A stretch of 64,000 nucleotides of DNA from Escherichia phage T4, in sequence record NC_000866.4. One strand, 5' to 3'. How positions within the stretch are numbered: the first letter of the stretch is position 1; every line of letters begins with the position of its first letter. This document shows, piece after piece, positions 6,782-59,805 of the stretch. Below the pieces are notes generated by a model. That model saw only the letters and a list, made by a program, of their open reading frames with translations, was not told the DNA's origin and ran no database searches. A program made the position numbers and the translations under genes.

Positions 6782-7023
6782 TGGAAGGTTTAATTGAAGC
6801 TATTAAATCAAACGACCTCGTAGCCGCTCGTAAATTATTTGCTGAAGCCATGGCTGCAAGAACGATTGATTTAATTAAAGAAGAAAAAATCGCTATCGCT
6901 CGCAATTTCTTAATCGAAGGTGAAGAACCTGAAGACGAGGATGAAGATGAAGATGACGAAGATAGTGATGATAAAGACGACAAAAAAGACGAAGACTCTG
7001 ACGAAGACGAGGATGATGAATAA
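6781..7023 (+). CDS. 67: Prohead core protein with poly-acidic C-terminus
   Basis: 80-aa ORF; C-terminal 30 residues almost entirely D/E; position between portal and gp68. Confidence 0.9.
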
Positions 7024-7448: not shown

Positions 7449-8086
7449 TGAATGAACCCCAATTACTAATTGAAACTTGGGGTCAACCTGGCGAAATTAT
7501 TGATGGCGTACCAATGCTTGAATCTCATGATGGAAAAGACTTAGGTTTAAAACCGGGTTTATACATCGAAGGAATATTCATGCAAGCGGAAGTCGTCAAT
7601 AGAAATAAACGTCTTTATCCAAAACGTATATTAGAAAAAGCGGTAAAAGACTATATTAATGAGCAAGTTTTAACTAAACAAGCTCTCGGAGAATTAAATC
7701 ATCCTCCACGCGCTAATGTTGACCCGATGCAAGCCGCTATCATTATAGAAGATATGTGGTGGAAAGGAAATGACGTATACGGACGAGCTCGTGTTATTGA
7801 AGGTGACCATGGTCCTGGAGATAAATTAGCAGCTAATATTCGTGCCGGATGGATTCCAGGAGTTTCTTCTCGTGGATTAGGTTCATTGACTGACACAAAT
7901 GAAGGTTATCGTATCGTAAACGAAGGATTCAAATTAACTGTAGGTGTTGATGCAGTATGGGGTCCAAGTGCTCCAGATGCATGGGTAACTCCTAAGGAAA
8001 TTACCGAATCACAGACGGCGGAAGCCGATACAAGTGCCGATGACGCCTATATGGCTCTCGCAGAGGCCATGAAAAAAGCGTTATAA
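7448..8086 (+). CDS. 21: Prohead core protease
   Basis: 212-aa ORF; length and position match T4 gp21. Confidence 0.93.
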   Translation: MNEPQLLIETWGQPGEIIDGVPMLESHDGKDLGLKPGLYIEGIFMQAEVVNRNKRLYPKRILEKAVKDYINEQVLTKQALGELNHPPRANVDPMQAAIIIEDMWWKGNDVYGRARVIEGDHGPGDKLAANIRAGWIPGVSSRGLGSLTDTNEGYRIVNEGFKLTVGVDAVWGPSAPDAWVTPKEITESQTAEADTSADDAYMALAEAMKKAL

Positions 8087-8089
8087 ATA
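8082..8089 (+). promoter_or_regulatory. Late promoter TATAAATA for gene 22
   Basis: Exact TATAAATA overlapping the gene 21 stop, 28 nt upstream of the gene 22 ATG. Confidence 0.7.
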
Positions 8090-8116
8090 TTATTATCTAA
8101 ACAACAGGACTACAAA

Positions 8117-8926
8117 ATGCTTAAAGAACAACTGATTGCCGAAGCGCAGAAAATTGATGCTTCCGTTGCTCTTGATAGTATTTTCGAATCAGTTAATATT
8201 TCTCCGGAAGCAAAAGAAACTTTCGGCACTGTATTCGAAGCTACCGTCAAGCAGCACGCCGTTAAATTAGCTGAATCTCATATCGCTAAAATTGCTGAAA
8301 AAGCAGAAGAAGAAGTAGAAAAAAATAAAGAAGAAGCCGAAGAAAAAGCTGAGAAGAAAATCGCTGAGCAAGCTTCTAAATTCATTGACCATCTTGCAAA
8401 AGAATGGCTCGCTGAAAATAAATTAGCAGTTGATAAAGGCATCAAAGCCGAACTGTTTGAATCCATGCTTGGTGGATTAAAAGAGCTCTTTGTTGAACAC
8501 AACGTTGTTGTTCCAGAAGAATCAGTTGATGTTGTAGCTGAAATGGAAGAAGAGCTGCAAGAACATAAAGAAGAATCGCCTCGTCTGTTCGAAGAACTGA
8601 ATATGCGCGACGCATATATCAATTATGTGCAGCGTGAAGTGGCATTGAGCGAAAGTACTAAAGATCTGACTGAGTCTCAAAAAGAAAAAGTCTCTGCTCT
8701 GGTCGAAGGTATGGATTATTCAGATGCATTCTCAAGTAAATTGAGTGCAATCGTAGAAATGGTGAAGAAATCTAATAAAGATGAAAGCACTATTACTGAG
8801 AGTATAAATACTCCTGATACTGAAGCAGCCGGACTGAATTTCGTCACTGAAGCTGTAGAAGATAAAGCTGCACAGGGTGCAGAAGATATTGTAAGTGTAT
8901 ATGCGAAAGTCGCATCTCGTTTCTAA
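8117..8926 (+). CDS. 22: Prohead core scaffold protein
   Basis: 269-aa acidic, coiled-coil-like ORF; TATAAATA upstream; T4 gp22 length. Confidence 0.93.
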   Translation: MLKEQLIAEAQKIDASVALDSIFESVNISPEAKETFGTVFEATVKQHAVKLAESHIAKIAEKAEEEVEKNKEEAEEKAEKKIAEQASKFIDHLAKEWLAENKLAVDKGIKAELFESMLGGLKELFVEHNVVVPEESVDVVAEMEEELQEHKEESPRLFEELNMRDAYINYVQREVALSESTKDLTESQKEKVSALVEGMDYSDAFSSKLSAIVEMVKKSNKDESTITESINTPDTEAAGLNFVTEAVEDKAAQGAEDIVSVYAKVASRF

Positions 8927-8944
8927 TTTTAAAGGTTAACACAA

Positions 8945-10510
8945 ATGACTATCAAAACTAAAGCTGAACTTTTGAACAAATGGAAGCCATTACTGGAAGG
9001 TGAAGGTTTACCGGAAATTGCTAATAGCAAACAAGCGATTATCGCTAAAATCTTTGAAAACCAGGAAAAAGATTTCCAGACAGCTCCGGAATATAAAGAC
9101 GAAAAAATTGCTCAGGCATTCGGTTCTTTCTTAACAGAAGCTGAAATCGGTGGTGACCACGGTTACAATGCTACCAACATCGCTGCAGGTCAGACTTCTG
9201 GCGCAGTAACTCAGATTGGCCCAGCTGTTATGGGTATGGTACGTCGTGCTATTCCTAACCTGATTGCTTTCGATATTTGTGGTGTTCAGCCGATGAACAG
9301 CCCGACTGGCCAGGTATTCGCACTGCGCGCAGTATATGGTAAAGACCCAGTGGCTGCCGGTGCTAAAGAAGCATTCCACCCAATGTATGGTCCAGATGCA
9401 ATGTTCTCTGGTCAGGGTGCTGCTAAGAAATTCCCAGCTCTGGCTGCTAGCACACAAACCACAGTAGGTGATATCTATACTCACTTCTTCCAGGAAACTG
9501 GTACTGTATATCTGCAAGCTTCTGTTCAAGTAACAATCGATGCTGGTGCGACTGATGCTGCTAAATTAGATGCTGAAATTAAGAAACAAATGGAAGCTGG
9601 TGCACTGGTAGAAATCGCTGAAGGTATGGCTACTTCTATCGCTGAACTCCAGGAAGGTTTCAATGGTTCTACCGATAACCCATGGAATGAAATGGGCTTC
9701 CGTATCGATAAGCAAGTTATCGAAGCTAAATCTCGTCAGCTGAAAGCTGCTTACTCTATTGAATTAGCACAAGACCTCCGCGCTGTTCACGGTATGGATG
9801 CTGATGCTGAACTGTCTGGTATTCTGGCTACAGAAATTATGCTGGAAATCAACCGTGAAGTTGTTGATTGGATTAACTACTCAGCTCAGGTTGGTAAATC
9901 TGGTATGACCCTGACTCCGGGTTCTAAAGCTGGTGTATTTGACTTCCAGGACCCAATTGATATTCGTGGTGCTCGCTGGGCGGGTGAATCCTTTAAAGCT
10001 CTGTTGTTCCAGATTGACAAAGAAGCAGTTGAAATTGCTCGTCAGACCGGTCGTGGTGAAGGTAACTTCATTATCGCTTCCCGTAACGTAGTTAACGTTT
10101 TGGCTTCAGTTGATACCGGCATTTCTTATGCTGCACAGGGTCTGGCTACCGGCTTTAGCACTGATACTACCAAGTCAGTATTTGCTGGTGTTCTGGGTGG
10201 TAAATACCGCGTATATATCGACCAGTATGCTAAACAGGATTATTTCACTGTAGGTTATAAAGGTCCGAACGAAATGGATGCTGGTATTTACTATGCTCCA
10301 TATGTAGCTCTGACTCCGCTGCGTGGTTCCGATCCGAAGAACTTCCAACCGGTAATGGGATTCAAAACTCGTTACGGTATCGGTATCAACCCATTTGCAG
10401 AATCCGCTGCTCAGGCTCCGGCTTCTCGCATCCAGAGCGGTATGCCTTCTATTCTGAATAGCCTTGGTAAAAACGCTTACTTTAGACGTGTATATGTTAA
10501 AGGTATCTAA
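8945..10510 (+). CDS. 23: Major capsid protein
   Basis: 521-aa ORF recognised as T4 gp23 (MTIKTKAELLNKWKPLLEGEGLPEIANSKQ...); hairpin terminator downstream. Confidence 0.98.
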   Translation: MTIKTKAELLNKWKPLLEGEGLPEIANSKQAIIAKIFENQEKDFQTAPEYKDEKIAQAFGSFLTEAEIGGDHGYNATNIAAGQTSGAVTQIGPAVMGMVRRAIPNLIAFDICGVQPMNSPTGQVFALRAVYGKDPVAAGAKEAFHPMYGPDAMFSGQGAAKKFPALAASTQTTVGDIYTHFFQETGTVYLQASVQVTIDAGATDAAKLDAEIKKQMEAGALVEIAEGMATSIAELQEGFNGSTDNPWNEMGFRIDKQVIEAKSRQLKAAYSIELAQDLRAVHGMDADAELSGILATEIMLEINREVVDWINYSAQVGKSGMTLTPGSKAGVFDFQDPIDIRGARWAGESFKALLFQIDKEAVEIARQTGRGEGNFIIASRNVVNVLASVDTGISYAAQGLATGFSTDTTKSVFAGVLGGKYRVYIDQYAKQDYFTVGYKGPNEMDAGIYYAPYVALTPLRGSDPKNFQPVMGFKTRYGIGINPFAESAAQAPASRIQSGMPSILNSLGKNAYFRRVYVKGI

Positions 10511-10536
10511 TCTCTAACGATAGAAACACAATTTTA

Positions 10537-10560
10537 GGGAACCTTCGGGTTCCCTTTTTT
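10537..10560 (+). terminator. Rho-independent terminator after gene 23
   Basis: GGGAACC-UUCG-GGUUCCC hairpin followed by a T6 tract. Confidence 0.8.
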
Positions 10561-11232
10561 CTATTTTATACGATAGCAATCAGGCATATCATCCGCATTT
10601 ATCCAATTGCGAATAGTTTTAGGACTAACTTTAAAATGCTCCGCTGCGTAATCAGGATTATCAAATTTAACGCCCTTTATACATATTGGAATAAATTTTT
10701 TAATACCACCAAGTTTTTCAGAAATAGCTTTACGATGTGAAATCGATATAGGTTTGTTTTTTCGTGGATGAACATGTGTTTTATAATATTCATTGCGCCC
10801 TTTAACTCGCTTCGCAATAGTTTCATCAGATTGCTTAACGCCTGTTTTTGCCTTTGATATTTTTCGTTTAGCTTCCACAGTCATTCCTTCTTTTGTTCGT
10901 ATTGATAACATATTACGATATGAAGGATCTTGCAAATGAACTATAACTGGATTTCCTCTGCCACCAATAGCAGCATTATAGGTATCAGTTCTCATAACGA
11001 ATTCCTCATTAACTAGTAAAGCTTCCATTTTATACATCTCCTCAGATGAGGAGAAAGAATAAAGAATTTCTTTTTTAAAGTTATGAATACCATATTTTTT
11101 GATGGATTTTTTGATGTTTACGCCAGAACCCATATAACCATCGTTTTCGTCAAGAGTAGCATGAGCTCCGATGTAAATTTTTCCATTGATGATATTAGTA
11201 ATTTGATATATTAAATATTTCATTTTAAACAT
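10561..11232 (-). CDS. segD: GIY-YIG homing endonuclease-like protein
   Basis: GIY-YIG motif (LIYQITNIINGKIYIG); ORF track starts at GTG 11235, first ATG at 11232 gives 223 aa; lies between genes 23 and 24 as T4 segD. Confidence 0.85.
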   Translation of the reverse strand: MFKMKYLIYQITNIINGKIYIGAHATLDENDGYMGSGVNIKKSIKKYGIHNFKKEILYSFSSSEEMYKMEALLVNEEFVMRTDTYNAAIGGRGNPVIVHLQDPSYRNMLSIRTKEGMTVEAKRKISKAKTGVKQSDETIAKRVKGRNEYYKTHVHPRKNKPISISHRKAISEKLGGIKKFIPICIKGVKFDNPDYAAEHFKVSPKTIRNWINADDMPDCYRIK

Positions 11233-11287
11233 CACTCCGTTTGTATATGATTATAATATCATATTACTTTGGTCTTGTAAATAACTT

Positions 11288-11295
11288 TATAAATA
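11288..11295 (+). promoter_or_regulatory. Late promoter TATAAATA for gene 24
   Basis: Exact TATAAATA 28 nt upstream of the gene 24 ATG. Confidence 0.7.
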
Positions 11296-11322
11296 GTATT
11301 ATATTTCAACAAGGAAAATACA

Positions 11323-12606
11323 ATGGCTAAAATCAACGAACTTCTGCGCGAATCAACCACAACGAATAGCAACTCAATCGGTCGCCCAAATCTCGTTGCT
11401 TTGACTCGCGCTACCACTAAATTAATATATTCTGACATTGTAGCAACGCAAAGAACTAATCAACCTGTTGCTGCTTTTTATGGTATCAAATACCTTAACC
11501 CAGACAACGAATTTACATTTAAAACTGGTGCTACTTACGCTGGCGAAGCTGGATATGTAGACCGAGAACAAATCACAGAATTAACAGAAGAGTCTAAATT
11601 AACTCTCAATAAAGGCGATTTATTCAAATATAATAATATCGTTTATAAAGTATTAGAAGATACTCCATTTGCTACTATCGAAGAAAGTGATTTAGAATTA
11701 GCTCTTCAGATTGCAATCGTTCTTTTAAAGGTTCGTCTATTTTCTGACGCAGCGTCAACAAGCAAATTTGAAAGCTCTGATAGTGAAATTGCGGATGCTA
11801 GATTCCAGATTAATAAATGGCAAACTGCAGTTAAATCTCGTAAACTTAAAACTGGCATCACAGTTGAATTAGCGCAAGATTTAGAAGCAAATGGATTCGA
11901 TGCTCCTAATTTCTTGGAAGATTTGCTTGCAACTGAAATGGCAGATGAAATCAATAAAGACATTCTGCAGTCTTTGATTACAGTGTCAAAACGCTATAAA
12001 GTTACAGGAATTACTGATAGTGGATTCATCGATTTGAGTTATGCATCTGCTCCTGAAGCTGGTCGTTCATTATACCGAATGGTATGTGAAATGGTTTCGC
12101 ATATCCAAAAAGAATCAACTTATACAGCAACGTTCTGTGTTGCTTCAGCTCGTGCCGCTGCGATTCTTGCTGCATCAGGCTGGTTAAAACATAAACCAGA
12201 AGATGACAAATATCTTTCACAAAATGCCTACGGGTTCTTAGCTAATGGTTTACCGCTTTATTGCGATACTAACAGCCCATTAGATTATGTAATCGTTGGC
12301 GTAGTAGAAAATATCGGTGAAAAAGAAATTGTTGGATCAATTTTCTATGCTCCGTATACAGAAGGTCTCGACTTAGATGACCCTGAACATGTAGGTGCAT
12401 TTAAAGTTGTTGTTGATCCAGAAAGCTTACAACCATCTATCGGTTTATTAGTTAGATATGCTTTATCAGCAAATCCTTATACTGTAGCAAAAGATGAAAA
12501 AGAAGCAAGAATAATTGACGGTGGAGACATGGATAAAATGGCAGGTCGTTCAGATTTGTCTGTTTTATTAGGTGTTAAGCTACCAAAAATTATCATTGAT
12601 GAATAA
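11323..12606 (+). CDS. 24: Capsid vertex protein
   Basis: 427-aa ORF; TATAAATA at 11288-11295; T4 gp24 length and position. Confidence 0.95.
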   Translation: MAKINELLRESTTTNSNSIGRPNLVALTRATTKLIYSDIVATQRTNQPVAAFYGIKYLNPDNEFTFKTGATYAGEAGYVDREQITELTEESKLTLNKGDLFKYNNIVYKVLEDTPFATIEESDLELALQIAIVLLKVRLFSDAASTSKFESSDSEIADARFQINKWQTAVKSRKLKTGITVELAQDLEANGFDAPNFLEDLLATEMADEINKDILQSLITVSKRYKVTGITDSGFIDLSYASAPEAGRSLYRMVCEMVSHIQKESTYTATFCVASARAAAILAASGWLKHKPEDDKYLSQNAYGFLANGLPLYCDTNSPLDYVIVGVVENIGEKEIVGSIFYAPYTEGLDLDDPEHVGAFKVVVDPESLQPSIGLLVRYALSANPYTVAKDEKEARIIDGGDMDKMAGRSDLSVLLGVKLPKIIIDE

Positions 12607-12612
12607 AACAAA

Positions 12613-12636
12613 GGGACCTTTCGGTCCCTTTTTATT
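12613..12636. terminator. Hairpin terminator between gene 24 and rnlB (convergent)
   Basis: GGGACC-UUUC-GGUCCC followed by TTTTTATTT on plus strand; sits between two convergent genes. Confidence 0.75.
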
Positions 12637-13640
12637 TAACTTACCAACTCAATCCAAGCTGGACGAAGTACATCTTGTACCATTTTAACTAATTCCTTTT
12701 TAATCAAAGAAGGATTATCTGCTTGAGTTAGAGTAATACCTTCACGAGAAGTTTCTTCCAAAATATCTTGAACAGTTAGCCCCATCACCTTTCCAAAATC
12801 CTTTGGACCAATTTCGCCAATTTTAGAAATAACGTTATTTACGCGGTTCAGTGTAACGTAACAAGCTAAAATTCCCACCAATTTGTTATCAGCTTCTGAT
12901 AGCTCAACTTTAGCTTTAATAGGCTTATCAGACTTTTTCTTTTCACTAAATTTAGAGTTCTTGCATTTAATCGCTACACGATTTCCATTACGAAGCCAAG
13001 AAGGATAACAAGGTTTCAATACATATCCTTCAGCAGTAAATACTTCGCCTTTTGCTTCGGCATTCCAAACGCATTTATTTGCATCAACTAATCCAGCATG
13101 GTCTACTGTAAAATTATAATCTTGGACGACAGAATCTAAATCATTTGGCAATTTAATAAGCTCTTCAAATTTACCGCGACCTAAAAGTGGAGCCATTTTA
13201 AATTTAAATGTATTACAGAATGATTCCATCATATAATCATCTACATAAGTCACATCACCGCTTTCTGTAGTAACAATAATGTCAAATACATAAAAATCTT
13301 TATCACAATAATCAACATTCTTCTGAATGCCAGGTCCAGCGAATTCGCCAAAGACTTGATAAGATACAACCGCTGAGGTTTCCATAATATCTTGTACAGC
13401 TTTAATGGAATCAGCATAATTCTTCAAAATAATTTCATACCCAAAGAAATCTTCAGCAGGAAGAATCGGTCCAGTGCGTTTAGCGCAAGTCACTTTATCA
13501 CGCTCAATAATCAATGAGAAATTTGTGCCGTGAATCTTTTCACGAGCTACCCACTCCCCACCAGTCAATCCCAAGCTATAAAGTTTTTCAATAAATTTAG
13601 AGTTGTAATGATTTTCAAGACTGCTATACTTTTTAAACAT
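12636..13640 (-). CDS. rnlB: RNA ligase 2
   Basis: 334-aa ORF with nucleotidyltransferase motif I (EKIHGTN); T4 Rnl2 length. Confidence 0.92.
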
Positions 13641-13649
13641 AATTAATCC

Positions 13650-13928
13650 TCAAAATGTAATTTCTAACCAATCACCATCACGCTGATCACTATTGACTTT
13701 AAAGCTGAATCCTTCTTTTCTCAGCCAATCACCAATTTCTTCTGTAATCAATTTATCACGAGCAATACAATAATAATTAAAATGTGTTTTACCTTGTTCA
13801 GCTGCTTTATTAGCAAGTTCTGAAAAATCTTTAATAAAACACTCTAGCTTAAACTGTTTACTTTTTAATGCTTTTTCGCGTAATTGATTAGCAAAAGATT
13901 CATTTTCATAAAGATCATACTGTTCCAT
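13650..13928 (-). CDS. 24.2: Hypothetical protein
   Basis: 92-aa ORF with ATG start between rnlB and hoc; name assigned by T4 synteny only. Confidence 0.7.
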   Translation of the reverse strand: MEQYDLYENESFANQLREKALKSKQFKLECFIKDFSELANKAAEQGKTHFNYYCIARDKLITEEIGDWLRKEGFSFKVNSDQRDGDWLEITF

Positions 13929-14097
13929 TTTTCACCTTTTTATTGATATGTCTTTTTCTATAGACAACTTTTTCTCGAGCCCATAATACAGCCACTTCTT
14001 TTGCCTGTAAGTTTAATTCACGAGCAATTTCAATGAATGACTTTCCAGACTCATGAAGAGTAAACACCACAACCTCAGTTCTCATAATCAATCTCAT
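13915..14097 (-). CDS. 24.3: Hypothetical protein
   Basis: 60-aa ORF with ATG start overlapping the downstream ORF; name by synteny only. Confidence 0.6.
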   Translation of the reverse strand: MRLIMRTEVVVFTLHESGKSFIEIARELNLQAKEVAVLWAREKVVYRKRHINKKVKNGTV

Positions 14098-14154
14098 GTT
14101 ATCGAGTTGGTGCCATTATATACATCATTTTCTGATTGTGTTTTGTGTGCTTTC

Positions 14155-14180
14155 AAAATGAAGAAAGGGGCCGAAGCCCC
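14155..14180 (-). terminator. Terminator after hoc
   Basis: Minus strand GGGGC-UUCG-GCCCC then UUUCUUCAUUUU. Confidence 0.65.
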
Positions 14181-14186
14181 TTATGA

Positions 14187-15317
14187 TTATGGATAGGTAT
14201 AGATGATACCAGTTTCTAAAGCAGTTTTATGAATGATGTATCCATTACGCGATTCTTGGACATCAACTTCTGGATAGTCTTTCATCATCTTCTGGAGAGT
14301 GTAACGATGCAGGTAATATTTACTATCTGGGTCGTCAGTTTTCCAATCTTTACCTTCTTCGGTCATTTTTTGGATTTCATCCATAACCCACCAACCGCAC
14401 CAGATGTAAGCTGAGCTACGGTGTGGAAGAGGATGAACATAAGGTAATTCACCTTCTGGTTCTGGAGCAACTTTAGCCGTGACTGTTACATTACCAGTTT
14501 TGGTAACGGTTACAGGGTTATAATCTGCAGCAGTAACAGTTGCAGTAACTTCAATAGTTTGACTTCCAACAGATGAGGTATCGACAGTATATACGTTAGT
14601 TGACCCTTCTACAGGAGAAGAATCTTTCTTCCATGAGTAAGTAATTTGTGCTTCTTCTGGAGCACCCGTAACATTAGCCGTAAATGTAGCCGAAGCATCT
14701 TGCTGAACATTAATAGAAGGAGGAGTCAATGTAACCTGTGGATTCATTGTCTTCTTATTAACCGTTAATGATACTTCATTAGAAGTAACGCTTAGTGCAT
14801 CATAATCTGTCGCGGTTACTTGGGCTACGCATTTAATTCTTTTTACTCCACTTGTAGTTGGAGTATAGCTAAATGTAGAGTTAGTTTCTCCACCAACTTG
14901 TGAATCATCTACATACCACTGATACGTAGCAGATGCTCCATCAGGTTGAGAAGCTAAGGCAGCAGTAAATTGAACTGGGGTTCCAATCACTCCAGCCGCA
15001 GGACTAGCAGGAGTTACGGCTAAGGTAGTCGTCTGTGTCTTATTTTTAACTGTGATAGTTGTTGTCGCTTCAGCCGTTTCCGGGCCTCCTTCAGAAAGTG
15101 TATTTGTTGCAACTACTTTAATAGTCTTTTGACCGGCAGGTCCTTTTAGTACATAACTAAAAGTTGCTTCAGCTCCATCTTGTGGAACATTATCTACGCT
15201 CCAAGCATATGTAATAGTTCCGCCTCCAGTTTGACCACTGGGTGTAGCAGTAAACTGCTTAGTTTCATCAATAACCCCTGTAGGTGTTTTAGGAGTTATA
15301 TCAACTGTAAAAGTCAT
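14187..15317 (-). CDS. hoc: Head outer capsid protein with three tandem Ig-like repeats
   Basis: 376-aa ORF; repeated blocks TITYAWSVD / ATYQWYVDD / QITYSWKKD; T4 Hoc length. Confidence 0.94.
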   Translation of the reverse strand: MTFTVDITPKTPTGVIDETKQFTATPSGQTGGGTITYAWSVDNVPQDGAEATFSYVLKGPAGQKTIKVVATNTLSEGGPETAEATTTITVKNKTQTTTLAVTPASPAAGVIGTPVQFTAALASQPDGASATYQWYVDDSQVGGETNSTFSYTPTTSGVKRIKCVAQVTATDYDALSVTSNEVSLTVNKKTMNPQVTLTPPSINVQQDASATFTANVTGAPEEAQITYSWKKDSSPVEGSTNVYTVDTSSVGSQTIEVTATVTAADYNPVTVTKTGNVTVTAKVAPEPEGELPYVHPLPHRSSAYIWCGWWVMDEIQKMTEEGKDWKTDDPDSKYYLHRYTLQKMMKDYPEVDVQESRNGYIIHKTALETGIIYTYP

Positions 15318-15326
15318 AAGTTATCC

Positions 15327-16007
15327 TTATTTTAATGTTACGAAAGAAGAGTTGCGTGTTTCACGAATTAAAACTGATCCATCGCGATTAATGTAATAAA
15401 TTAAGCTAAATAAAGTTTGGTGTGCTGACGCATGTTCAAAACTAGTTGGGTGAGATTTCCAATCAGGAGTTTCAGCAATCCATTGATAAATCCACCAAGG
15501 AACAGTACAGAATCCTAGATTTTTTCCAATCAGTTGAAGATTCGGACTAAAGTTTTCCGGAAGAGTAAATACAGACGGCTTTTCAGATTCAATAATCTCA
15601 GCTACAGCCTGTTCGAATTTTTCTTCAACAAAAGGAGTATCTTCAATCAAAACATCGGTATTTTCAGGAATTTTATCCGTTTCTACTACTTCAATTTTAA
15701 TGTCAGATTTAATCGGAGAATCAATCAGAAGTGCTGCTTCTGGATTGACTTCTTCATCGTCATATTTTAATCCCTCTGCGGCATCAGCAGCATCAATTAA
15801 GTCTTTAATAGATAACCCATCAGTCTCTGGCATAGGTTCACTAGCGAGCTTCTGGAGGGCTTCTTCAATATCAACAACGATATTATCAAAAGATTTATTC
15901 TTTTTGACCTTTATACCAAACTGTTCAGCATATTCAGCTAATTTAGCTTTAGCTTCTTTGTTATCATCAAGAGCCTTCAGCTCTGCAATATAATCTTTAT
16001 CTATCAT
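15327..16007 (-). CDS. inh: Inhibitor of prohead protease
   Basis: 226-aa acidic ORF adjacent to hoc; T4 inh position and length. Confidence 0.85.
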   Translation of the reverse strand: MIDKDYIAELKALDDNKEAKAKLAEYAEQFGIKVKKNKSFDNIVVDIEEALQKLASEPMPETDGLSIKDLIDAADAAEGLKYDDEEVNPEAALLIDSPIKSDIKIEVVETDKIPENTDVLIEDTPFVEEKFEQAVAEIIESEKPSVFTLPENFSPNLQLIGKNLGFCTVPWWIYQWIAETPDWKSHPTSFEHASAHQTLFSLIYYINRDGSVLIRETRNSSFVTLK

Positions 16008-16020
16008 AATATTTCCTCAG

Positions 16021-16028
16021 TATAAATA
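16021..16028 (+). promoter_or_regulatory. Late-promoter motif TATAAATA upstream of segE
   Basis: Exact TATAAATA 29 nt upstream of the segE ATG, in the inh-segE intergenic region. Confidence 0.5.
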
Positions 16029-52542: not shown

Positions 52543-53196
52543 TCAATACTTGCAAGATTTCACAGTTTCAATGAAAACATTTTTAGCTTTCTGTGAATCA
52601 ATATTTAAAATTTTTCTATAAGCCTTTAACTTTATAGAATAATTATTCCAGACTAAATTATCAGTCTGTTCATCATGTTTATCAATTATATTTAAAAACG
52701 AATCAAGCAAGATAAACGTCTCAAACGAAATTATGTTCGATTGCAGAAGTTTAAAAATATAACTTGATTGAACTTTTGGATTATACTCAAAAATTTCTTT
52801 AAAAGCAGAAACTTCAACTTTTTTACTAAAATAATAAATGTTGCGAATATCTTCTTCAAACTTAAATTTAATTTGCTTTAAGCGTCCGATATATTCACGA
52901 TAAAACACAAGTGCATCAGCGTCAGAGATGTCACCAATCCAAGCATCTTGGTTAGCAACCAAATTGCTTATAAAGATTAAAGCAAGTTCCTTTAATTTAT
53001 ATTTTTCTGATAACTTCTGGAAAAAATACTTATCCCTTCGCTTTTGATAAGCGGCATCAGACACCCGCATGCACCAATTATACTTAATTACATCATACTT
53101 TCCATTCATATGTTGTTTTATCATTAAGTATAATTTATAAACTGATTTACCATCAATGTATCTTTCACCACCAGCAGGCATGCGGAGTTTAATCAT
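52543..53196 (-). CDS. 59: Helicase loader
   Basis: 217-aa ORF; T4 gp59 length and position. Confidence 0.92.
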   Translation of the reverse strand: MIKLRMPAGGERYIDGKSVYKLYLMIKQHMNGKYDVIKYNWCMRVSDAAYQKRRDKYFFQKLSEKYKLKELALIFISNLVANQDAWIGDISDADALVFYREYIGRLKQIKFKFEEDIRNIYYFSKKVEVSAFKEIFEYNPKVQSSYIFKLLQSNIISFETFILLDSFLNIIDKHDEQTDNLVWNNYSIKLKAYRKILNIDSQKAKNVFIETVKSCKY

Positions 53197-53531
53197 AGTA
53201 GAAAATCTAATGTATTAGTTTTTTCACAACGAACAACAGAAGGACGTAAAAGATTTTCGTCAATAGCTTCTGACTGAATTTTTTCAATTATACCCGAAGG
53301 AATAAATTTAGCAAATTGAGTTTCAGGAATAGAATTTTCTTCTAAGAATGCTGTTGTAGCTTCAAGATAACTCATTCCAAACTCTTCTACCATTTTTTCA
53401 ATAATAAATCCATTTTCTTGGCGGTCAAGAAGCTTTGCTATTTCATCCTTTTCTTTCTTAATTGAAAGTTCTTTTTCTGAAAGACCGGTCTCATCGACCG
53501 GACGAATATCATTTAGAGAAAACTGTGTCAT
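53193..53531 (-). CDS. 33: Late transcription co-activator
   Basis: 112 aa from ATG at 53531 (MTQFSLNDIRP...); ORF track extends 3 codons upstream. Confidence 0.9.
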   Translation of the reverse strand: MTQFSLNDIRPVDETGLSEKELSIKKEKDEIAKLLDRQENGFIIEKMVEEFGMSYLEATTAFLEENSIPETQFAKFIPSGIIEKIQSEAIDENLLRPSVVRCEKTNTLDFLL

Positions 53532-53778
53532 AAAGTTCAACTACCTCTTCAGTTTCAGCTTCAAACACATCACGGTTATCTTTATGATACAAAGCTAATA
53601 GACGATTAAACATCTTACCATCAACGCCAAGTTCATCTTTAGCACGAATTCGAATATCTTTAATCAGTTCATTATAACCGGAAATTTTCAGTTTATGATC
53701 AGATGCTTCTTTAATAAATTTAGCCAAGTCTTCGCCATGGATAGCTTCATCAAATTCAACCATTTCTTTTTTAGCCAT
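53509..53778 (-). CDS. dsbA: Double-stranded DNA-binding protein
   Basis: 89-aa ORF overlapping the start of gene 33; T4 dsbA length. Confidence 0.88.
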   Translation of the reverse strand: MAKKEMVEFDEAIHGEDLAKFIKEASDHKLKISGYNELIKDIRIRAKDELGVDGKMFNRLLALYHKDNRDVFEAETEEVVELYDTVFSK

Positions 53779-53786
53779 TATTCACC

Positions 53787-54704
53787 TCAAAATTCATTAA
53801 TGCTATTAGTTAATTTAGAAAGACCCGCTTTTACAAAATATGAATAAATTTTGCCACGCGGTGGTAATTTATATGAATTATAGTAATTCACAATGTTTGA
53901 AGCAATATTATCAGGAATATAATCAAAATCAATTAGAACTAAATTTTCTTTATAACGATTATATTCAGATTCAGTGAGAAGCACCTTAGCTTGCTCACGG
54001 TCATTAGCAATAGCTTCAACGATTGAAGTTTTCATTGAAGGAGTTCGTTCACCTTCAACTCTGGTAAACCAAAAGTCAGATCGTACTTTAACTGAAGCAA
54101 CGTTATCCTTTTTGTCGCCTTTAAGGATTTTAGTCATACAGTCAATTTCAGCAGAACCGCTTTTAATTTTAACCCATTTCTTATGCATCGGAGACCATTG
54201 CTTAACATTTGGATATTTGTGAAGCTGAGTAAAGTCACCATCTGACGAAATGATTAAAATCTTATGTCCTTCTAAAGAGAACTTTTTAACAAGAACAGCA
54301 ATGTGGTCATCTGCTTCATACTTATCAATATCCATAACAATGTATGGCATATAAGCTTTCAATTCATCTATAACTTTATGGCTGGATTCAAAATAACCTT
54401 CCCAGTCCCAAGTAGATTCTTCTCGTGCTTTTCCACGGTTTTTCTTATAATAATAAGCGAAATCACGACGCCAATATCCAGATTTCGCGTTATCAATACA
54501 CAGTACAATTTTAGTGTATCCAAGCGTTTTTGCTTTTTTGACATTAAACTTAATTGAGTTCAATATCAAATGACGAACCATTGATAAATTAATTTTTTCT
54601 TTATCTGGGAAGTTTACCAAAGCAGTTGAAAGCGCAATTTGACTAAAGTCAATTAAGCAGATTCCTTCTTTGTAATCTTCATCCAACATCATTTCTAAAT
54701 CCAT
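53787..54704 (-). CDS. rnh: RNase H / 5'-3' exonuclease (FEN family)
   Basis: 305 aa from ATG at 54704 (MDLEMMLDEDYKEG...); ORF-track start at 54719 is TTG. Confidence 0.93.
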   Translation of the reverse strand: MDLEMMLDEDYKEGICLIDFSQIALSTALVNFPDKEKINLSMVRHLILNSIKFNVKKAKTLGYTKIVLCIDNAKSGYWRRDFAYYYKKNRGKAREESTWDWEGYFESSHKVIDELKAYMPYIVMDIDKYEADDHIAVLVKKFSLEGHKILIISSDGDFTQLHKYPNVKQWSPMHKKWVKIKSGSAEIDCMTKILKGDKKDNVASVKVRSDFWFTRVEGERTPSMKTSIVEAIANDREQAKVLLTESEYNRYKENLVLIDFDYIPDNIASNIVNYYNSYKLPPRGKIYSYFVKAGLSKLTNSINEF

Positions 54705-54733
54705 ATGAACCTCGTTCAATTAGTGAGATTTCT

Positions 54734-54763
54734 ATTATATACCATCCAAATCTTAAAGTAAAC
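54734..54763 (-). promoter_or_regulatory. Early sigma70-like promoter for rnh
   Basis: Minus strand GTTTACT - 17 nt - TATAAT, about 30 nt upstream of the rnh ATG; back-to-back with the gene 34 late promoter. Confidence 0.55.
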
Positions 54764-54766
54764 AAG

Positions 54767-54774
54767 TATAAATA
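54767..54774 (+). promoter_or_regulatory. Late promoter TATAAATA for gene 34
   Basis: Exact TATAAATA 35 nt upstream of the gene 34 ATG. Confidence 0.7.
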
Positions 54775-54808
54775 CTTATTATTGAAAACACAATAGGAGC
54801 CCGGGAGA

Positions 54809-57800
54809 ATGGCCGAGATTAAAAGAGAATTCAGAGCAGAAGATGGTCTGGACGCAGGTGGTGATAAAATAATCAACGTAGCTTTAGCTGATCGTACCGT
54901 AGGAACTGACGGTGTTAACGTTGATTACTTAATTCAAGAAAACACAGTTCAACAGTATGATCCAACTCGTGGATATTTAAAAGATTTTGTAATCATTTAT
55001 GATAACCGCTTTTGGGCTGCTATAAATGATATTCCAAAACCAGCAGGAGCTTTTAATAGCGGACGCTGGAGAGCATTACGTACCGATGCTAACTGGATTA
55101 CGGTTTCATCTGGTTCATATCAATTAAAATCTGGTGAAGCAATTTCGGTTAACACCGCAGCTGGAAATGACATCACGTTTACTTTACCATCTTCTCCAAT
55201 TGATGGTGATACTATCGTTCTCCAAGATATTGGAGGAAAACCTGGAGTTAACCAAGTTTTAATTGTAGCTCCAGTACAAAGTATTGTAAACTTTAGAGGT
55301 GAACAGGTACGTTCAGTACTAATGACTCATCCAAAGTCACAGCTAGTTTTAATTTTTAGTAATCGTCTGTGGCAAATGTATGTTGCTGATTATAGTAGAG
55401 AAGCTATAGTTGTAACACCAGCGAATACTTATCAAGCGCAATCCAACGATTTTATCGTACGTAGATTTACTTCTGCTGCACCAATTAATGTCAAACTTCC
55501 AAGATTTGCTAATCATGGCGATATTATTAATTTCGTCGATTTAGATAAACTAAATCCGCTTTATCATACAATTGTTACTACATACGATGAAACGACTTCA
55601 GTACAAGAAGTTGGAACTCATTCCATTGAAGGCCGTACATCGATTGACGGTTTCTTGATGTTTGATGATAATGAGAAATTATGGAGACTGTTTGACGGGG
55701 ATAGTAAAGCGCGTTTACGTATCATAACGACTAATTCAAACATTCGTCCAAATGAAGAAGTTATGGTATTTGGTGCGAATAACGGAACAACTCAAACAAT
55801 TGAGCTTAAGCTTCCAACTAATATTTCTGTTGGTGATACTGTTAAAATTTCCATGAATTACATGAGAAAAGGACAAACAGTTAAAATCAAAGCTGCTGAT
55901 GAAGATAAAATTGCTTCTTCAGTTCAATTGCTGCAATTCCCAAAACGCTCAGAATATCCACCTGAAGCTGAATGGGTTACAGTTCAAGAATTAGTTTTTA
56001 ACGATGAAACTAATTATGTTCCAGTTTTGGAGCTTGCTTACATAGAAGATTCTGATGGAAAATATTGGGTTGTACAGCAAAACGTTCCAACTGTAGAAAG
56101 AGTAGATTCTTTAAATGATTCTACTAGAGCAAGATTAGGCGTAATTGCTTTAGCTACACAAGCTCAAGCTAATGTCGATTTAGAAAATTCTCCACAAAAA
56201 GAATTAGCAATTACTCCAGAAACGTTAGCTAATCGTACTGCTACAGAAACTCGCAGAGGTATTGCAAGAATAGCAACTACTGCTCAAGTGAATCAGAACA
56301 CCACATTCTCTTTTGCTGATGATATTATCATCACTCCTAAAAAGCTGAATGAAAGAACTGCTACAGAAACTCGTAGAGGTGTCGCAGAAATTGCTACGCA
56401 GCAAGAAACTAATGCAGGAACCGATGATACTACAATCATCACTCCTAAAAAGCTTCAAGCTCGTCAAGGTTCTGAATCATTATCTGGTATTGTAACCTTT
56501 GTATCTACTGCAGGTGCTACTCCAGCTTCTAGCCGTGAATTAAATGGTACGAATGTTTATAATAAAAACACTGATAATTTAGTTGTTTCACCTAAAGCTT
56601 TGGATCAGTATAAAGCTACTCCAACACAGCAAGGTGCAGTAATTTTAGCAGTTGAAAGTGAAGTAATTGCTGGACAAAGTCAGCAAGGATGGGCAAATGC
56701 TGTTGTAACGCCAGAAACGTTACATAAAAAGACATCAACTGATGGAAGAATTGGTTTAATTGAAATTGCTACGCAAAGTGAAGTTAATACAGGAACTGAT
56801 TATACTCGTGCAGTCACTCCTAAAACTTTAAATGACCGTAGAGCAACTGAAAGTTTAAGTGGTATAGCTGAAATTGCTACACAAGTTGAATTCGACGCAG
56901 GCGTCGACGATACTCGTATCTCTACACCATTAAAAATTAAAACCAGATTTAATAGTACTGATCGTACTTCTGTTGTTGCTCTATCTGGATTAGTTGAATC
57001 AGGAACTCTCTGGGACCATTATACACTTAATATTCTTGAAGCAAATGAGACACAACGTGGTACACTTCGTGTAGCTACGCAGGTCGAAGCTGCTGCGGGA
57101 ACATTAGATAATGTTTTAATAACTCCTAAAAAGCTTTTAGGTACTAAATCTACTGAAGCGCAAGAGGGTGTTATTAAAGTTGCAACTCAGTCTGAAACTG
57201 TGACTGGAACGTCAGCAAATACTGCTGTATCTCCAAAAAATTTAAAATGGATTGCGCAGAGTGAACCTACTTGGGCAGCTACTACTGCAATAAGAGGTTT
57301 TGTTAAAACTTCATCTGGTTCAATTACATTCGTTGGTAATGATACAGTCGGTTCTACCCAAGATTTAGAACTGTATGAGAAAAATAGCTATGCGGTATCA
57401 CCATATGAATTAAACCGTGTATTAGCAAATTATTTGCCACTAAAAGCAAAAGCTGCTGATACAAATTTATTGGATGGTCTAGATTCATCTCAGTTCATTC
57501 GTAGGGATATTGCACAGACGGTTAATGGTTCACTAACCTTAACCCAACAAACGAATCTGAGTGCCCCTCTTGTATCATCTAGTACTGGTGAATTTGGTGG
57601 TTCATTGGCCGCTAATAGAACATTTACCATCCGTAATACAGGAGCCCCGACTAGTATCGTTTTCGAAAAAGGTCCTGCATCCGGGGCAAATCCTGCACAG
57701 TCAATGAGTATTCGTGTATGGGGTAACCAATTTGGCGGCGGTAGTGATACGACCCGTTCGACAGTGTTTGAAGTTGGCGATGACACATCTCATCACTTTT

Positions 57801-58678
57801 ATTCTCAACGTAATAAAGACGGTAATATAGCGTTTAACATTAATGGTACTGTAATGCCAATAAACATTAATGCTTCCGGTTTGATGAATGTGAATGGCAC
57901 TGCAACATTCGGTCGTTCAGTTACAGCCAATGGTGAATTCATCAGCAAGTCTGCAAATGCTTTTAGAGCAATAAACGGTGATTACGGATTCTTTATTCGT
58001 AATGATGCCTCTAATACCTATTTTTTGCTCACTGCAGCCGGTGATCAGACTGGTGGTTTTAATGGATTACGCCCATTATTAATTAATAATCAATCCGGTC
58101 AGATTACAATTGGTGAAGGCTTAATCATTGCCAAAGGTGTTACTATAAATTCAGGCGGTTTAACTGTTAACTCGAGAATTCGTTCTCAGGGTACTAAAAC
58201 ATCTGATTTATATACCCGTGCGCCAACATCTGATACTGTAGGATTCTGGTCAATCGATATTAATGATTCAGCCACTTATAACCAGTTCCCGGGTTATTTT
58301 AAAATGGTTGAAAAAACTAATGAAGTGACTGGGCTTCCATACTTAGAACGTGGCGAAGAAGTTAAATCTCCTGGTACACTGACTCAGTTTGGTAACACAC
58401 TTGATTCGCTTTACCAAGATTGGATTACTTATCCAACGACGCCAGAAGCGCGTACCACTCGCTGGACACGTACATGGCAGAAAACCAAAAACTCTTGGTC
58501 AAGTTTTGTTCAGGTATTTGACGGAGGTAACCCTCCTCAACCATCTGATATCGGTGCTTTACCATCTGATAATGCTACAATGGGGAATCTTACTATTCGT
58601 GATTTCTTGCGAATTGGTAATGTTCGCATTGTTCCTGACCCAGTGAATAAAACGGTTAAATTTGAATGGGTTGAATAA
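54809..58678 (+). CDS. 34: Long tail fibre proximal subunit
   Basis: 1289-aa ORF with internal repeats; TATAAATA at 54767-54774; T4 gp34 length. Confidence 0.96.
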   Translation: MAEIKREFRAEDGLDAGGDKIINVALADRTVGTDGVNVDYLIQENTVQQYDPTRGYLKDFVIIYDNRFWAAINDIPKPAGAFNSGRWRALRTDANWITVSSGSYQLKSGEAISVNTAAGNDITFTLPSSPIDGDTIVLQDIGGKPGVNQVLIVAPVQSIVNFRGEQVRSVLMTHPKSQLVLIFSNRLWQMYVADYSREAIVVTPANTYQAQSNDFIVRRFTSAAPINVKLPRFANHGDIINFVDLDKLNPLYHTIVTTYDETTSVQEVGTHSIEGRTSIDGFLMFDDNEKLWRLFDGDSKARLRIITTNSNIRPNEEVMVFGANNGTTQTIELKLPTNISVGDTVKISMNYMRKGQTVKIKAADEDKIASSVQLLQFPKRSEYPPEAEWVTVQELVFNDETNYVPVLELAYIEDSDGKYWVVQQNVPTVERVDSLNDSTRARLGVIALATQAQANVDLENSPQKELAITPETLANRTATETRRGIARIATTAQVNQNTTFSFADDIIITPKKLNERTATETRRGVAEIATQQETNAGTDDTTIITPKKLQARQGSESLSGIVTFVSTAGATPASSRELNGTNVYNKNTDNLVVSPKALDQYKATPTQQGAVILAVESEVIAGQSQQGWANAVVTPETLHKKTSTDGRIGLIEIATQSEVNTGTDYTRAVTPKTLNDRRATESLSGIAEIATQVEFDAGVDDTRISTPLKIKTRFNSTDRTSVVALSGLVESGTLWDHYTLNILEANETQRGTLRVATQVEAAAGTLDNVLITPKKLLGTKSTEAQEGVIKVATQSETVTGTSANTAVSPKNLKWIAQSEPTWAATTAIRGFVKTSSGSITFVGNDTVGSTQDLELYEKNSYAVSPYELNRVLANYLPLKAKAADTNLLDGLDSSQFIRRDIAQTVNGSLTLTQQTNLSAPLVSSSTGEFGGSLAANRTFTIRNTGAPTSIVFEKGPASGANPAQSMSIRVWGNQFGGGSDTTRSTVFEVGDDTSHHFYSQRNKDGNIAFNINGTVMPININASGLMNVNGTATFGRSVTANGEFISKSANAFRAINGDYGFFIRNDASNTYFLLTAAGDQTGGFNGLRPLLINNQSGQITIGEGLIIAKGVTINSGGLTVNSRIRSQGTKTSDLYTRAPTSDTVGFWSIDINDSATYNQFPGYFKMVEKTNEVTGLPYLERGEEVKSPGTLTQFGNTLDSLYQDWITYPTTPEARTTRWTRTWQKTKNSWSSFVQVFDGGNPPQPSDIGALPSDNATMGNLTIRDFLRIGNVRIVPDPVNKTVKFEWVE

Positions 58679-58686
58679 GAGGTATT

Positions 58687-59805
58687 ATGGAAAAATTTAT
58701 GGCCGAGTTTGGACAAGGATATGTCCAAACGCCATTTTTATCGGAAAGTAATTCAGTAAGATATAAAATAAGTATAGCGGGTTCTTGCCCGCTTTCTACA
58801 GCAGGACCATCATATGTTAAATTTCAGGATAATCCTGTAGGAAGTCAAACATTTAGCGCAGGCCTCCATTTAAGAGTTTTTGACCCTTCCACCGGAGCAT
58901 TAGTTGATAGTAAGTCATATGCCTTTTCGACTTCAAATGATACTACATCAGCTGCTTTTGTTAGTTTCATGAATTCTTTGACGAATAATCGAATTGTTGC
59001 TATATTAACTAGTGGAAAGGTTAATTTTCCTCCTGAAGTAGTATCTTGGTTAAGAACCGCCGGAACGTCTGCCTTTCCATCTGATTCTATATTGTCAAGA
59101 TTTGACGTATCATATGCTGCTTTTTATACTTCTTCTAAAAGAGCTATCGCATTAGAGCATGTTAAACTGAGTAATAGAAAAAGCACAGATGATTATCAAA
59201 CTATTTTAGATGTTGTATTTGACAGTTTAGAAGATGTAGGGGCTACCGGGTTTCCAAGAGGAACGTATGAAAGTGTTGAGCAATTCATGTCGGCAGTTGG
59301 TGGAACTAATGACGAAATTGCGAGATTGCCAACTTCAGCTGCTATAAGTAAATTATCTGATTATAATTTAATTCCTGGAGATGTTCTTTATCTTAAAGCT
59401 CAGTTATATGCTGATGCTGATTTACTTGCTCTTGGAACTACAAATATATCTATCCGTTTTTATAATGCATCTAACGGATATATTTCTTCAACACAAGCTG
59501 AATTTACTGGGCAAGCTGGGTCATGGGAATTAAAGGAAGATTATGTAGTTGTTCCAGAAAACGCAGTAGGATTTACGATATACGCACAGAGAACTGCACA
59601 AGCTGGCCAAGGTGGCATGAGAAATTTAAGCTTTTCTGAAGTATCAAGAAATGGCGGCATTTCGAAACCTGCTGAATTTGGCGTCAATGGTATTCGTGTT
59701 AATTATATCTGCGAATCCGCTTCACCCCCGGATATAATGGTACTTCCTACGCAAGCATCGTCTAAAACTGGTAAAGTGTTTGGGCAAGAATTTAGAGAAG
59801 TTTAA
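58687..59805 (+). CDS. 35: Long tail fibre hinge connector
   Basis: 372-aa ORF; T4 gp35 length; terminator downstream. Confidence 0.93.
   Translation: MEKFMAEFGQGYVQTPFLSESNSVRYKISIAGSCPLSTAGPSYVKFQDNPVGSQTFSAGLHLRVFDPSTGALVDSKSYAFSTSNDTTSAAFVSFMNSLTNNRIVAILTSGKVNFPPEVVSWLRTAGTSAFPSDSILSRFDVSYAAFYTSSKRAIALEHVKLSNRKSTDDYQTILDVVFDSLEDVGATGFPRGTYESVEQFMSAVGGTNDEIARLPTSAAISKLSDYNLIPGDVLYLKAQLYADADLLALGTTNISIRFYNASNGYISSTQAEFTGQAGSWELKEDYVVVPENAVGFTIYAQRTAQAGQGGMRNLSFSEVSRNGGISKPAEFGVNGIRVNYICESASPPDIMVLPTQASSKTGKVFGQEFREV

What the first reader, a model, noticed from the sequence alone, without database searches (positions are those of the whole stretch)
54734..54774. Back-to-back early and late promoters at the rnh / gene 34 boundary
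Within 41 bp, a minus-strand GTTTACT-17-TATAAT promoter points into rnh and a plus-strand TATAAATA points into gene 34. This compact switch region separates the early block from the late tail-fibre operon.
Basis: seen in the sequence. Interest (0 to 1): 0.25.

Follow-up and report, generated by a model that had tools for sequence, protein, structure and literature searches.

The report
T4 rnh/gene 34 divergent promoters
This is the already-described pair of back-to-back phage T4 promoters, one early into the RNase H gene and one late into tail-fibre gene 34; both are really there, and the finding is ordinary textbook T4 biology.

Summary
The window is phage T4 (window coordinate + 96000 = NC_000866.4). 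On the minus strand, GTTTACT lies at 54763..54757 and TATAAT at 54739..54734, with a 17-bp spacer. On the plus strand, TATAAATA lies at 54767..54774. They sit in the 104-bp spacer between rnh (53787..54704, -) and gene 34 (54809..58678, +).

GenBank record X15818.2 is 100% identical here. It already annotates these sites as an early -35/-10 and a late -10.

The rnh-side promoter is the published early promoter Pe148.6. It was detected by primer extension 1 min after infection and in vitro. The map unit given for the start of its transcribed region, 150,727, equals window 54727, which is 7 nt downstream of the TATAAT.

The late box matches the consensus 8 of 8. It is the only plus-strand (T/A)ATAAATA between 44000 and gene 36. 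It is conserved 28-35 nt upstream of gene 34 in all eight Tevenvirinae genera sampled. I found no direct 5' mapping for it.

"Switch" overstates the case. Timing comes from global reprogramming of RNA polymerase, not from a local element. The boundary is also leaky, because middle promoter P34i fires antisense from inside gene 34.

Verdict: confirmed, supported, already known, low interest. One side lead is that Pe148.6 may be a hybrid early/middle promoter.

The parts
53787..54704 (-). rnh (T4 RNase H, 305 aa), first gene of the leftward prereplicative unit rnh-dsbA-33-59
   Evidence: ORF and translation. Annotated rnh in T4T and ORF A in X15818.2.
54706..54718 (-). rnh leader: Shine-Dalgarno GAGG (54713..54710) lying in or next to a small hairpin, TGAAC-GAG-GTTCA
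   Evidence: Read from the sequence. It is the MFE structure in T4, JS09, VR26 and NP4, but it is weak and z-scores are not significant. VR26 (TGTAC/GTACA) and NP4 (TGAAT/ATTCA) carry compensatory changes.
54727..54727 (-). Start of Pe148.6 transcription: predicted +1, and the map unit 150,727 given in the literature
   Evidence: GTTTAC at -36..-31 and TATAAT at -12..-7 place +1 at 54727. PMC6024815 gives the region downstream of Pe148.6 as map units 150,727 to 146,948. The coordinate offset of 96000 is established.
54734..54739 (-). -10 hexamer TATAAT of early promoter Pe148.6
   Evidence: Annotated '-10 region early promoter' in X15818.2. Invariant in T4, RB14, T6 and SA21RB.
54757..54763 (-). 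-35 element GTTTACT of Pe148.6 (T4-type GTTTAC at -36..-31), 17-bp spacer to the -10
   Evidence: The X15818.2 '-35 region early promoter' feature ends here. GTTTAC is named as the T4 early -35 in PMC1524935.
54767..54774 (+). Late promoter box TATAAATA for gene 34 (-13..-6). On the other strand it occupies -40..-47 of Pe148.6.
   Evidence: Annotated '-10 region late promoter' in X15818.2 and in SA21RB. Conserved 28-35 nt before the gene 34 ATG in 8 Tevenvirinae genera. It is the only plus-strand (T/A)ATAAATA between 44000 and 59836.
54780..54781 (+). Predicted late transcription start. Inferred from the -13..-6 rule; I did not see it mapped.
   Evidence: The position rule is from PMC1524935.
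54795..54799 (+). Shine-Dalgarno-like AGGAG of gene 34
   Evidence: Read from the sequence. It lies 9 nt before the ATG at 54809.
54809..58678 (+). Gene 34 (long tail fibre proximal subunit, 1289 aa), followed by gene 35 (58687..59805)
   Evidence: NC_000866 coordinates 150809..154678.
57018..57043 (-). Middle promoter P34i (TGCTTCA-13-TATAAT), antisense inside gene 34 and pointing toward rnh. It is context that blurs the 'boundary'.
   Evidence: Pattern match. Published start site 153011 = window 57011 (PMC2988021 Table 1).

Best explanation
Two independent core promoters of different temporal classes lie back-to-back in the 104-bp rnh/gene 34 spacer of phage T4. Straight after infection, unmodified host sigma-70 RNA polymerase recognises GTTTAC (-36..-31), a 17-bp spacer and TATAAT (-12..-7) on the minus strand. 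It starts at about 54727 and transcribes leftward into rnh, dsbA, 33 and 59. This is the published early promoter Pe148.6. Later, polymerase carrying the phage sigma-like gp55 and co-activator gp33, activated by the gp45 sliding clamp, recognises TATAAATA (-13..-6) on the plus strand. It starts at about 54780 and transcribes rightward into genes 34-35. What is shown: both motifs, their orientation and their cross-genus conservation (this work), and early activity of Pe148.6 (literature). What is inferred: the late start point and its dependence on gp55, gp33 and gp45, which follow from class membership. Also inferred is that the two polymerases cannot occupy the site together, because the starts are only about 53 bp apart and the late box lies at -40..-47 of the early promoter. 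Timing is set by genome-wide reprogramming of polymerase, not by a local operator.
For: The window is 100% identical to X15818.2, which annotates an early -35/-10 and a late -10 at exactly these positions. The T4 relative SA21RB carries the same two annotations citing Miller 2003. Pe148.6 gives primer-extension products at 1 min after infection and in vitro, and the stated map unit 150,727 equals window 54727. rnh RNA falls in the early class, and gp34 protein falls in the late class. GTTTAC-N16-18-TATAAT occurs once against 0.07 expected. TATAAATA is enriched, 19 against 8.4. It is the only plus-strand late box available to genes 34-35. TATAAATA lies 28-35 nt upstream of the gene 34 ATG in Tequatro-, Mosig-, Winkler-, Gapriver-, Jiaoda-, Karam- and Gelderlandvirus, in spacers that are otherwise largely unalignable. 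AATAAATA takes its place in three more distant lineages. In RB14 and T6 the spacer is 100% and 97.1% identical to T4, against 84% for the adjacent gene 34 5' end, and no substitution falls in any of the three motifs. The class definitions come from PMC1524935, PMC2988020 and PMC2988021.
Against: I found no direct 5'-end mapping of the gene 34 late transcript in the held literature. PMC2988020 warns that not all 50 listed late sites have been shown to be active in vivo. Gene 34 RNA onset falls at 4-7 min, the 'middle' class under that study's threshold scheme. Pe148.6 lacks the TGn extended -10 and an A-rich UP element, both typical of T4 early promoters. Its RNA is unexpectedly reduced in a motA-amber infection. 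Conservation within Tequatrovirus is a weak test because the rnh side is also 97.7% identical.
Confidence: 0.9

Rival explanations
1. The rnh promoter is a hybrid early/middle promoter rather than purely early. Its -35 region GTTTACTTTA overlaps a degenerate MotA box (wwwTGCTTtA with an ACTT centre, as in T4 P46). After the first minutes it would be sustained by MotA/AsiA sigma appropriation.
For: Pe148.6 RNA is lower in motA-amber infection, which the authors call surprising. rnh RNA-seq counts fall to 0.14 of wild type. TACTTTA matches 6 of 7 core positions of the MotA box. PMC2988021 describes an active ACTT-centred box at P46 and says MotA tolerates deviations. Orthologous rnh promoters carry canonical MotA-type architecture: VR26 TATTGCTTTA-12-TAATAT and UTI-K1 TTATGCTTCA-13-TATAAT. 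JS09 and LC53 have CGCTTTC-12-TACTAT. MotA homologues are present in records named for phages of other genera.
Against: In T4 the box sits 14 bp from TATAAT, outside the 11-13 bp range given for middle promoters. The authors state that there is no recognisable middle-promoter sequence at this site. No middle promoter is listed at rnh in the 2010 table. The RNA-seq drop could partly reflect loss of read-through from the MotA-dependent P34i upstream. The orthologue reading is by eye and has not been tested.
Confidence: 0.2
2. The two promoters are functionally coupled, making a true local switch. The late TATAAATA would double as the A/T-rich upstream (UP-like) element of Pe148.6, and occupancy of one promoter would exclude the other, sharpening the early-to-late transition.
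For: The late box lies at -40..-47 of Pe148.6, where UP-like elements of T4 early promoters sit. Only 3 bp separate it from the -35 in T4 and JS09. In UTI-K1, KaAlpha and NP4 the late box overlaps the -10 of the opposite-strand rnh promoter. So close apposition is conserved even though the spacer sequence is not.
Against: On the rnh strand the box reads TATTTATA, which is A/T-rich but not the A-tract typical of UP elements. In LF82-31 and Shf125875 the box lies about 17 bp further out. No experiment I found links the two promoters. The compact T4 genome alone would favour short shared spacers.
Confidence: 0.12
3. The motifs are chance consensus matches in A/T-rich intergenic DNA and have no promoter function.
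For: Generic sigma-70-like matches are no more frequent here than in shuffled sequence: 13 against 12.0. The spacer is 69% A+T.
Against: There is published primer-extension evidence for Pe148.6. The T4-specific pattern has an expectation of 0.07. The late box is conserved across genera at a fixed distance from the gene 34 ATG. Genes 34-35 have no alternative plus-strand late box.
Confidence: 0.02

Closest known systems
[quoted passage not shown]
   Same: They are the same DNA. The map unit given for the start of the Pe148.6 region, 150,727, equals window 54727.
   Different: Nothing differs. This is the known object itself.
T4 early promoter class (sigma-70, 'UP/-35/TGn/-10')
   Same: GTTTAC at -36..-31, a 17-bp spacer, TATAAT, leftward (counterclockwise) polarity, and activity at 1 min after infection.
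   Different: There is no TGn or TGTG extended -10; the sequence reads GGTA before TATAAT. The upstream region is A/T-rich but not A-rich. The promoter shows unusual MotA dependence.
T4 late promoter class (gp55/gp33/gp45, TATAAATA)
   Same: A perfect 8/8 box, A/T-rich DNA just downstream (CTTATTA), 34 nt upstream of a virion-structure gene, and conservation in relatives.
   Different: Factor dependence and the 5' end were not verified with the material available here.
T4 middle promoters (MotA box + -10), e.g. PdsbA and P34i in the same region
   Same: The -35 region resembles an ACTT-centred MotA box. Orthologous rnh promoters in other genera look like canonical middle promoters.
   Different: The T4 spacing is 14 bp rather than 11-13. 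The promoter is not listed as a middle promoter.
Lambda PR/PRM divergent switch (from general knowledge, not tested here)
   Same: Closely spaced divergent promoters that are used at different times or in different states.
   Different: Lambda switches through local operators bound by CI and Cro. No operator or local regulator is evident here, and timing follows global changes to polymerase.

Membership tests
T4 early promoter | -35 element GTTTAC at -36..-31, 16-18 bp upstream of a TATAAT-like -10 | tested here: met
   GTTTAC-17-TATAAT at 54763..54734 on the minus strand. The consensus is quoted in PMC1524935.
T4 early promoter | Extended -10 (TGn / TGTG) and an A-rich UP element at about -40..-44 | tested here: not met
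   GGTA precedes TATAAT, and the scan reports no TG. Positions -44..-40 read TTATA, which is A/T-rich with only 2 A. These features are typical of most early promoters but not obligatory.
T4 early promoter | Leftward (counterclockwise) polarity, just upstream of a prereplicative gene | tested here: met
   The site is on the minus strand, with its -10 ending 29 nt before the rnh ATG. The polarity rule is in PMC2988020.
T4 early promoter | Active immediately after infection, and in vitro with host polymerase alone | not testable with these tools
   From the literature only: a primer-extension product at 1 min after infection and in vitro transcription of Pe148.6 (PMC6024815).
T4 late promoter | TATAAATA box | tested here: met
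   8/8 match at 54767-54774 on the plus strand.
T4 late promoter | Correct orientation upstream of a late (virion) gene, with A/T-rich DNA downstream of the box | tested here: met
   There are 34 nt between the box and the gene 34 ATG, and the bases after the box are CTTATTA. gp34 protein falls in the late class.
T4 late promoter | Box at -13..-6 of a mapped primary 5' end | not testable with these tools
   I found no 5' mapping in the held papers. The TSS table of the T4 dRNA-seq preprint is not held.
T4 late promoter | Dependence on gp55, gp33 and gp45 | not testable with these tools
   Only indirect evidence exists. Gene 34 RNA at 5 min falls to 0.065 of wild type in motA-amber infection, like most late genes.
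T4 late promoter | Conservation of the box in orthologous positions of related phages | tested here: met
   An exact TATAAATA lies 28-35 nt before the gene 34 ATG in all 8 Tevenvirinae genera sampled. AATAAATA takes its place in Braga-, Muldoon- and Biquartavirus.
T4 middle (MotA-dependent) promoter | MotA box (a/t)(a/t)(a/t)TGCTT(t/c)A centred near -30 | tested here: inconclusive
   GTTTACTTTA matches 6 of 7 core positions and has an ACTT centre. An ACTT box is functional at P46 according to PMC2988021.
T4 middle (MotA-dependent) promoter | 11-13 bp between the MotA box and the -10 | tested here: not met
   The distance to TATAAT is 14 bp. The alternative hexamer TATATA at 12 bp lacks the T at -7.

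The most novel reading that the evidence does not exclude
Pe148.6 would be a dual-mode promoter in which an early -35 (GTTTAC) overlaps a degenerate ACTT MotA box. The ancestral Tevenvirinae rnh promoter would have been MotA-type, with the gene 34 late box kept pressed against it or overlapping it. This would explain the published, unexplained MotA dependence of a bona fide early promoter.
Probability: 0.2. Interest if true: 0.3.

Novelty: already known. Interest (0 to 1): 0.1.

Why it matters
The finding matters little as a discovery. The promoter pair was annotated with the 1986 sequence, and the early member has been used as a named experimental promoter. It is a clean example of how T4 packs promoters of different temporal classes into one short spacer. 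The comparative data add a small point: the late box and the position of the rnh -10 are held across genera, while the -35/-30 element switches between sigma-70-type and MotA-type sequences. That may bear on the unexplained MotA dependence of Pe148.6.

Tried and rejected
- **Generic sigma-70 scan:** it is not informative, returning 13 hits against 12.0 expected, so I used T4-specific patterns instead.
- **Rfam search of 53500-56000:** the only hit was a chance lncRNA match at E = 0.56. There is no known RNA element here.
- **Hairpin at the 5' end of the predicted gene 34 leader (UAUUG-N6-CAAUA):** it is weak at -5.3 kcal/mol with z = -0.83. I rejected it as evidence of anything.
- **Literature searches for direct mapping of the gene 34 late 5' end:** they found nothing.
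- **Papers not held:** Miller 2003 (PMC150520) and James 2010 (PMC2953677) could not be read. A search for Hahn, Kruse and Rüger 1986 found nothing.
- **T4 dRNA-seq preprint:** its supplementary TSS table is not held.
- **NC_000866 and AF158101:** neither is in the annotated collections.
- **Terminator between P34i and rnh:** the scan found one weak minus-strand candidate at 56268..56250, within chance expectation. Read-through cannot be judged from this.
- **Chance co-occurrence:** considered and rejected (see rival explanations).

Full report
**Identity of the window.** A 1-kb query around the finding is 100% identical to GenBank X15818.2 (phage T4 genes 34, 33 and 59). It is 99.8% identical to complete T4 genomes. 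The minus-strand ORF 53787..54704 translates to T4 RNase H. The plus-strand ORF 54809..58678 is gp34, the proximal long tail fibre subunit. Gene 34 is given as 150809..154678 in NC_000866.4, so window coordinate + 96000 = NC_000866.4 coordinate. Three published middle-promoter start sites confirm this offset by landing on matching MotA-box/-10 patterns in the window.

**The observation.** All three motifs are present exactly as described.
- TATAAT lies at 54739..54734 on the minus strand.
- GTTTACT lies at 54763..54757 on the minus strand, with a 17-bp spacer to the -10.
- TATAAATA lies at 54767..54774 on the plus strand. Only 3 bp separate the early -35 from the late box.

A generic sigma-70 scan is uninformative, returning 13 sites against 12.0 expected. 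The T4-type pattern GTTTAC-N16-18-TATAAT occurs once in 64 kb against 0.07 expected. TATAAATA occurs 19 times against 8.4 expected, and none of 100 shuffles reached that number. From those figures, finding both motifs together in divergent orientation within about 30 bp has an expectation near 1e-4 per window. This is my rough estimate.

**What is already on record.**
- X15818.2 annotates a '-35 region early promoter' ending at window 54761. It also annotates a '-10 region early promoter' at 54733-54742 on the minus strand and a '-10 region late promoter' at 54766-54779 on the plus strand (locus + 52299 = window).
- The T4 relative SA21RB carries the same two promoter features, citing the T4 genome review.
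- Patterson-West et al. 2018 (PMC6024815) name the rnh-side promoter Pe148.6. They detect its primer-extension product 1 min after infection and in vitro. They give the transcribed region as map units 150,727 to 146,948.
- 150,727 is window 54727. This is exactly the +1 predicted from GTTTAC at -36..-31 and TATAAT at -12..-7 (consensus positions from PMC1524935).
- In a time-resolved omics study (PMC9697503), rnh, dsbA, 33 and 59 RNAs fall in the early class and gp34 protein in the late class.

**The late promoter.** I found no direct 5'-end mapping for gene 34 in the papers held. The review of T4 late transcription cautions that not all 50 listed late sites are proven in vivo. The indirect case is strong, however.
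- The box matches the consensus 8 of 8 and is followed by A/T-rich DNA.
- It lies 34 nt before the gene 34 ATG.
- It is the only plus-strand (T/A)ATAAATA between 44000 and the gene 36 box at 59837, so genes 34-35 have no other canonical late promoter.
- Gene 34 RNA at 5 min drops to 0.065 of wild type in a motA-amber infection, as most late genes do.
- One caveat: its onset was binned as 'middle' (4-7 min) under that study's 10%-of-maximum threshold.

**Comparative evidence.** I collected the rnh/gene 34 spacer from 14 annotated phages and 10 viral contigs. The divergent rnh/34 arrangement is widespread.
- An exact TATAAATA lies 28-35 nt before the gene 34 ATG in Tequatro-, Mosig-, Winkler-, Gapriver-, Jiaoda-, Karam- and Gelderlandvirus. 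The spacers range from 54 to 120 bp and are largely unalignable.
- Braga-, Muldoon- and Biquartavirus have AATAAATA instead, the known A(-13) variant.
- A -10 hexamer for rnh sits about 28-34 nt before the rnh ATG in most lineages.
- Within Tequatrovirus, the spacer of RB14 and T6 is 100% and 97.1% identical to T4. The rnh 5' end is 97.7% identical and the gene 34 5' end 84%. None of the three T6 substitutions touches a motif.

**Mechanism.** The best-supported reading is two independent promoters sharing one spacer. Host sigma-70 polymerase uses Pe148.6 at once. Polymerase bearing gp55 and gp33, activated by the gp45 clamp, later uses TATAAATA. This follows from class membership as described in PMC2988021 and PMC2988020. 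The two starts are about 53 bp apart, and the late box lies at -40..-47 of the early promoter. Simultaneous occupancy is therefore implausible, but this is an inference. There is no sign of a local operator. The review also notes that neither AsiA nor ModA accounts for early shut-off, whose cause remains unknown. So 'switch' should be read as a junction, not a device.

**The boundary is leaky.**
- The published middle promoter P34i (start 153011 = window 57011) is TGCTTCA-13-TATAAT on the minus strand at 57043..57018. It lies 2.2 kb inside gene 34, antisense, and points toward rnh.
- PdsbA lies inside rnh at 53904..53880.
- Late boxes also occur inside the prereplicative block.

**A side lead.** Pe148.6 RNA is unexpectedly reduced in motA-amber infections. 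The authors call this surprising and see no middle-promoter sequence at the site.
- The T4 -35 region GTTTACTTTA resembles a MotA box with an ACTT centre. That variant is reported as functional at P46. It sits 14 bp from the -10, though, outside the usual 11-13 bp range.
- In other genera the orthologous promoter looks like a canonical middle promoter. VR26 has TATTGCTTTA-12-TAATAT and UTI-K1 has TTATGCTTCA-13-TATAAT.
- JS09 and LC53 have CGCTTTC-12-TACTAT overlapping a GTTTAC-like or degenerate -35.
- MotA homologues occur in 1141 phage records, including Klebsiella, Salmonella, Enterobacter and Serratia phages.
- I rate a hybrid early/middle nature for the T4 promoter at about 0.2. Loss of P34i read-through could also contribute to the RNA-seq effect.

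**Verdict.** The feature is already known, so interest is low.

Noticed in passing
window 57018-57043 (-), start about 57011: The published T4 middle promoter P34i (TGCTTCA-13-TATAAT) lies antisense 2.2 kb inside gene 34 and points toward rnh. Prereplicative transcription may therefore cross the 'boundary'. Only one weak terminator-like site lies in between, at 56268..56250.
   Followed up: partly
window 54706-54718 (-); orthologous positions in L022, L025, L027, L028, L029: The rnh leader has a small hairpin, TGAAC-GAG-GTTCA, with the Shine-Dalgarno GAGG in or beside the loop, just before the ATG. VR26 (TGTAC/GTACA) and NP4 (TGAAT/ATTCA) carry compensatory double changes. The predicted stability is weak (-3 to -5 kcal/mol) and z-scores are not significant. 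I found no mention of it in the T4 post-transcriptional control review.
   Followed up: partly
rnh-side promoters in L022-L029 and L009-L011 (spacers upstream of rnh): Across genera the -10 position of the rnh promoter is kept, but the upstream element changes type. It is GTTTAC in Tequatro- and Mosigvirus and TGCTT-type (MotA-box-like) in Gapriver-, Jiaoda-, Karam- and Gelderlandvirus. In UTI-K1, KaAlpha and NP4 the minus-strand TATAAT overlaps the plus-strand late box within ATTATAAATA.
   Followed up: partly
window 54827, 54829 and 56004: The window (identical to X15818.2) differs from T4T, the only complete T4 genome compared base by base, at these three positions. The first two create an EcoRI site, GAATTC (54827-54832), and make gp34 residue 7 Glu instead of Lys. 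T4T and all T4-like relatives examined have AAGTTC. This could be a strain polymorphism of the cytosine-DNA T4 used for cloning, or an old sequencing error.
   Followed up: partly
window 53880-53904 (-) and 52685-52709 (-): MotA-box/-10 patterns coincide with the published middle promoters PdsbA (start 149873, inside the rnh ORF) and PsegG (start 148678). The pattern TGCTTNA-N11-13-TANNNT has 10 matches against 4.7 expected, and 9 of the 10 are on the minus strand.
   Followed up: partly
whole window: TATAAATA is enriched (19 against 8.4 expected). The first nine matches, at 2500-16028, are all on the plus strand, in line with clustered rightward late genes.
   Followed up: no
window 54780-54795 (+): The predicted gene 34 late leader begins with a 5-bp hairpin, UAUUG-N6-CAAUA. 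A similar TTATTG-AAA-CAATAA is present in JS09. It folds no better than shuffled sequence.
   Followed up: partly
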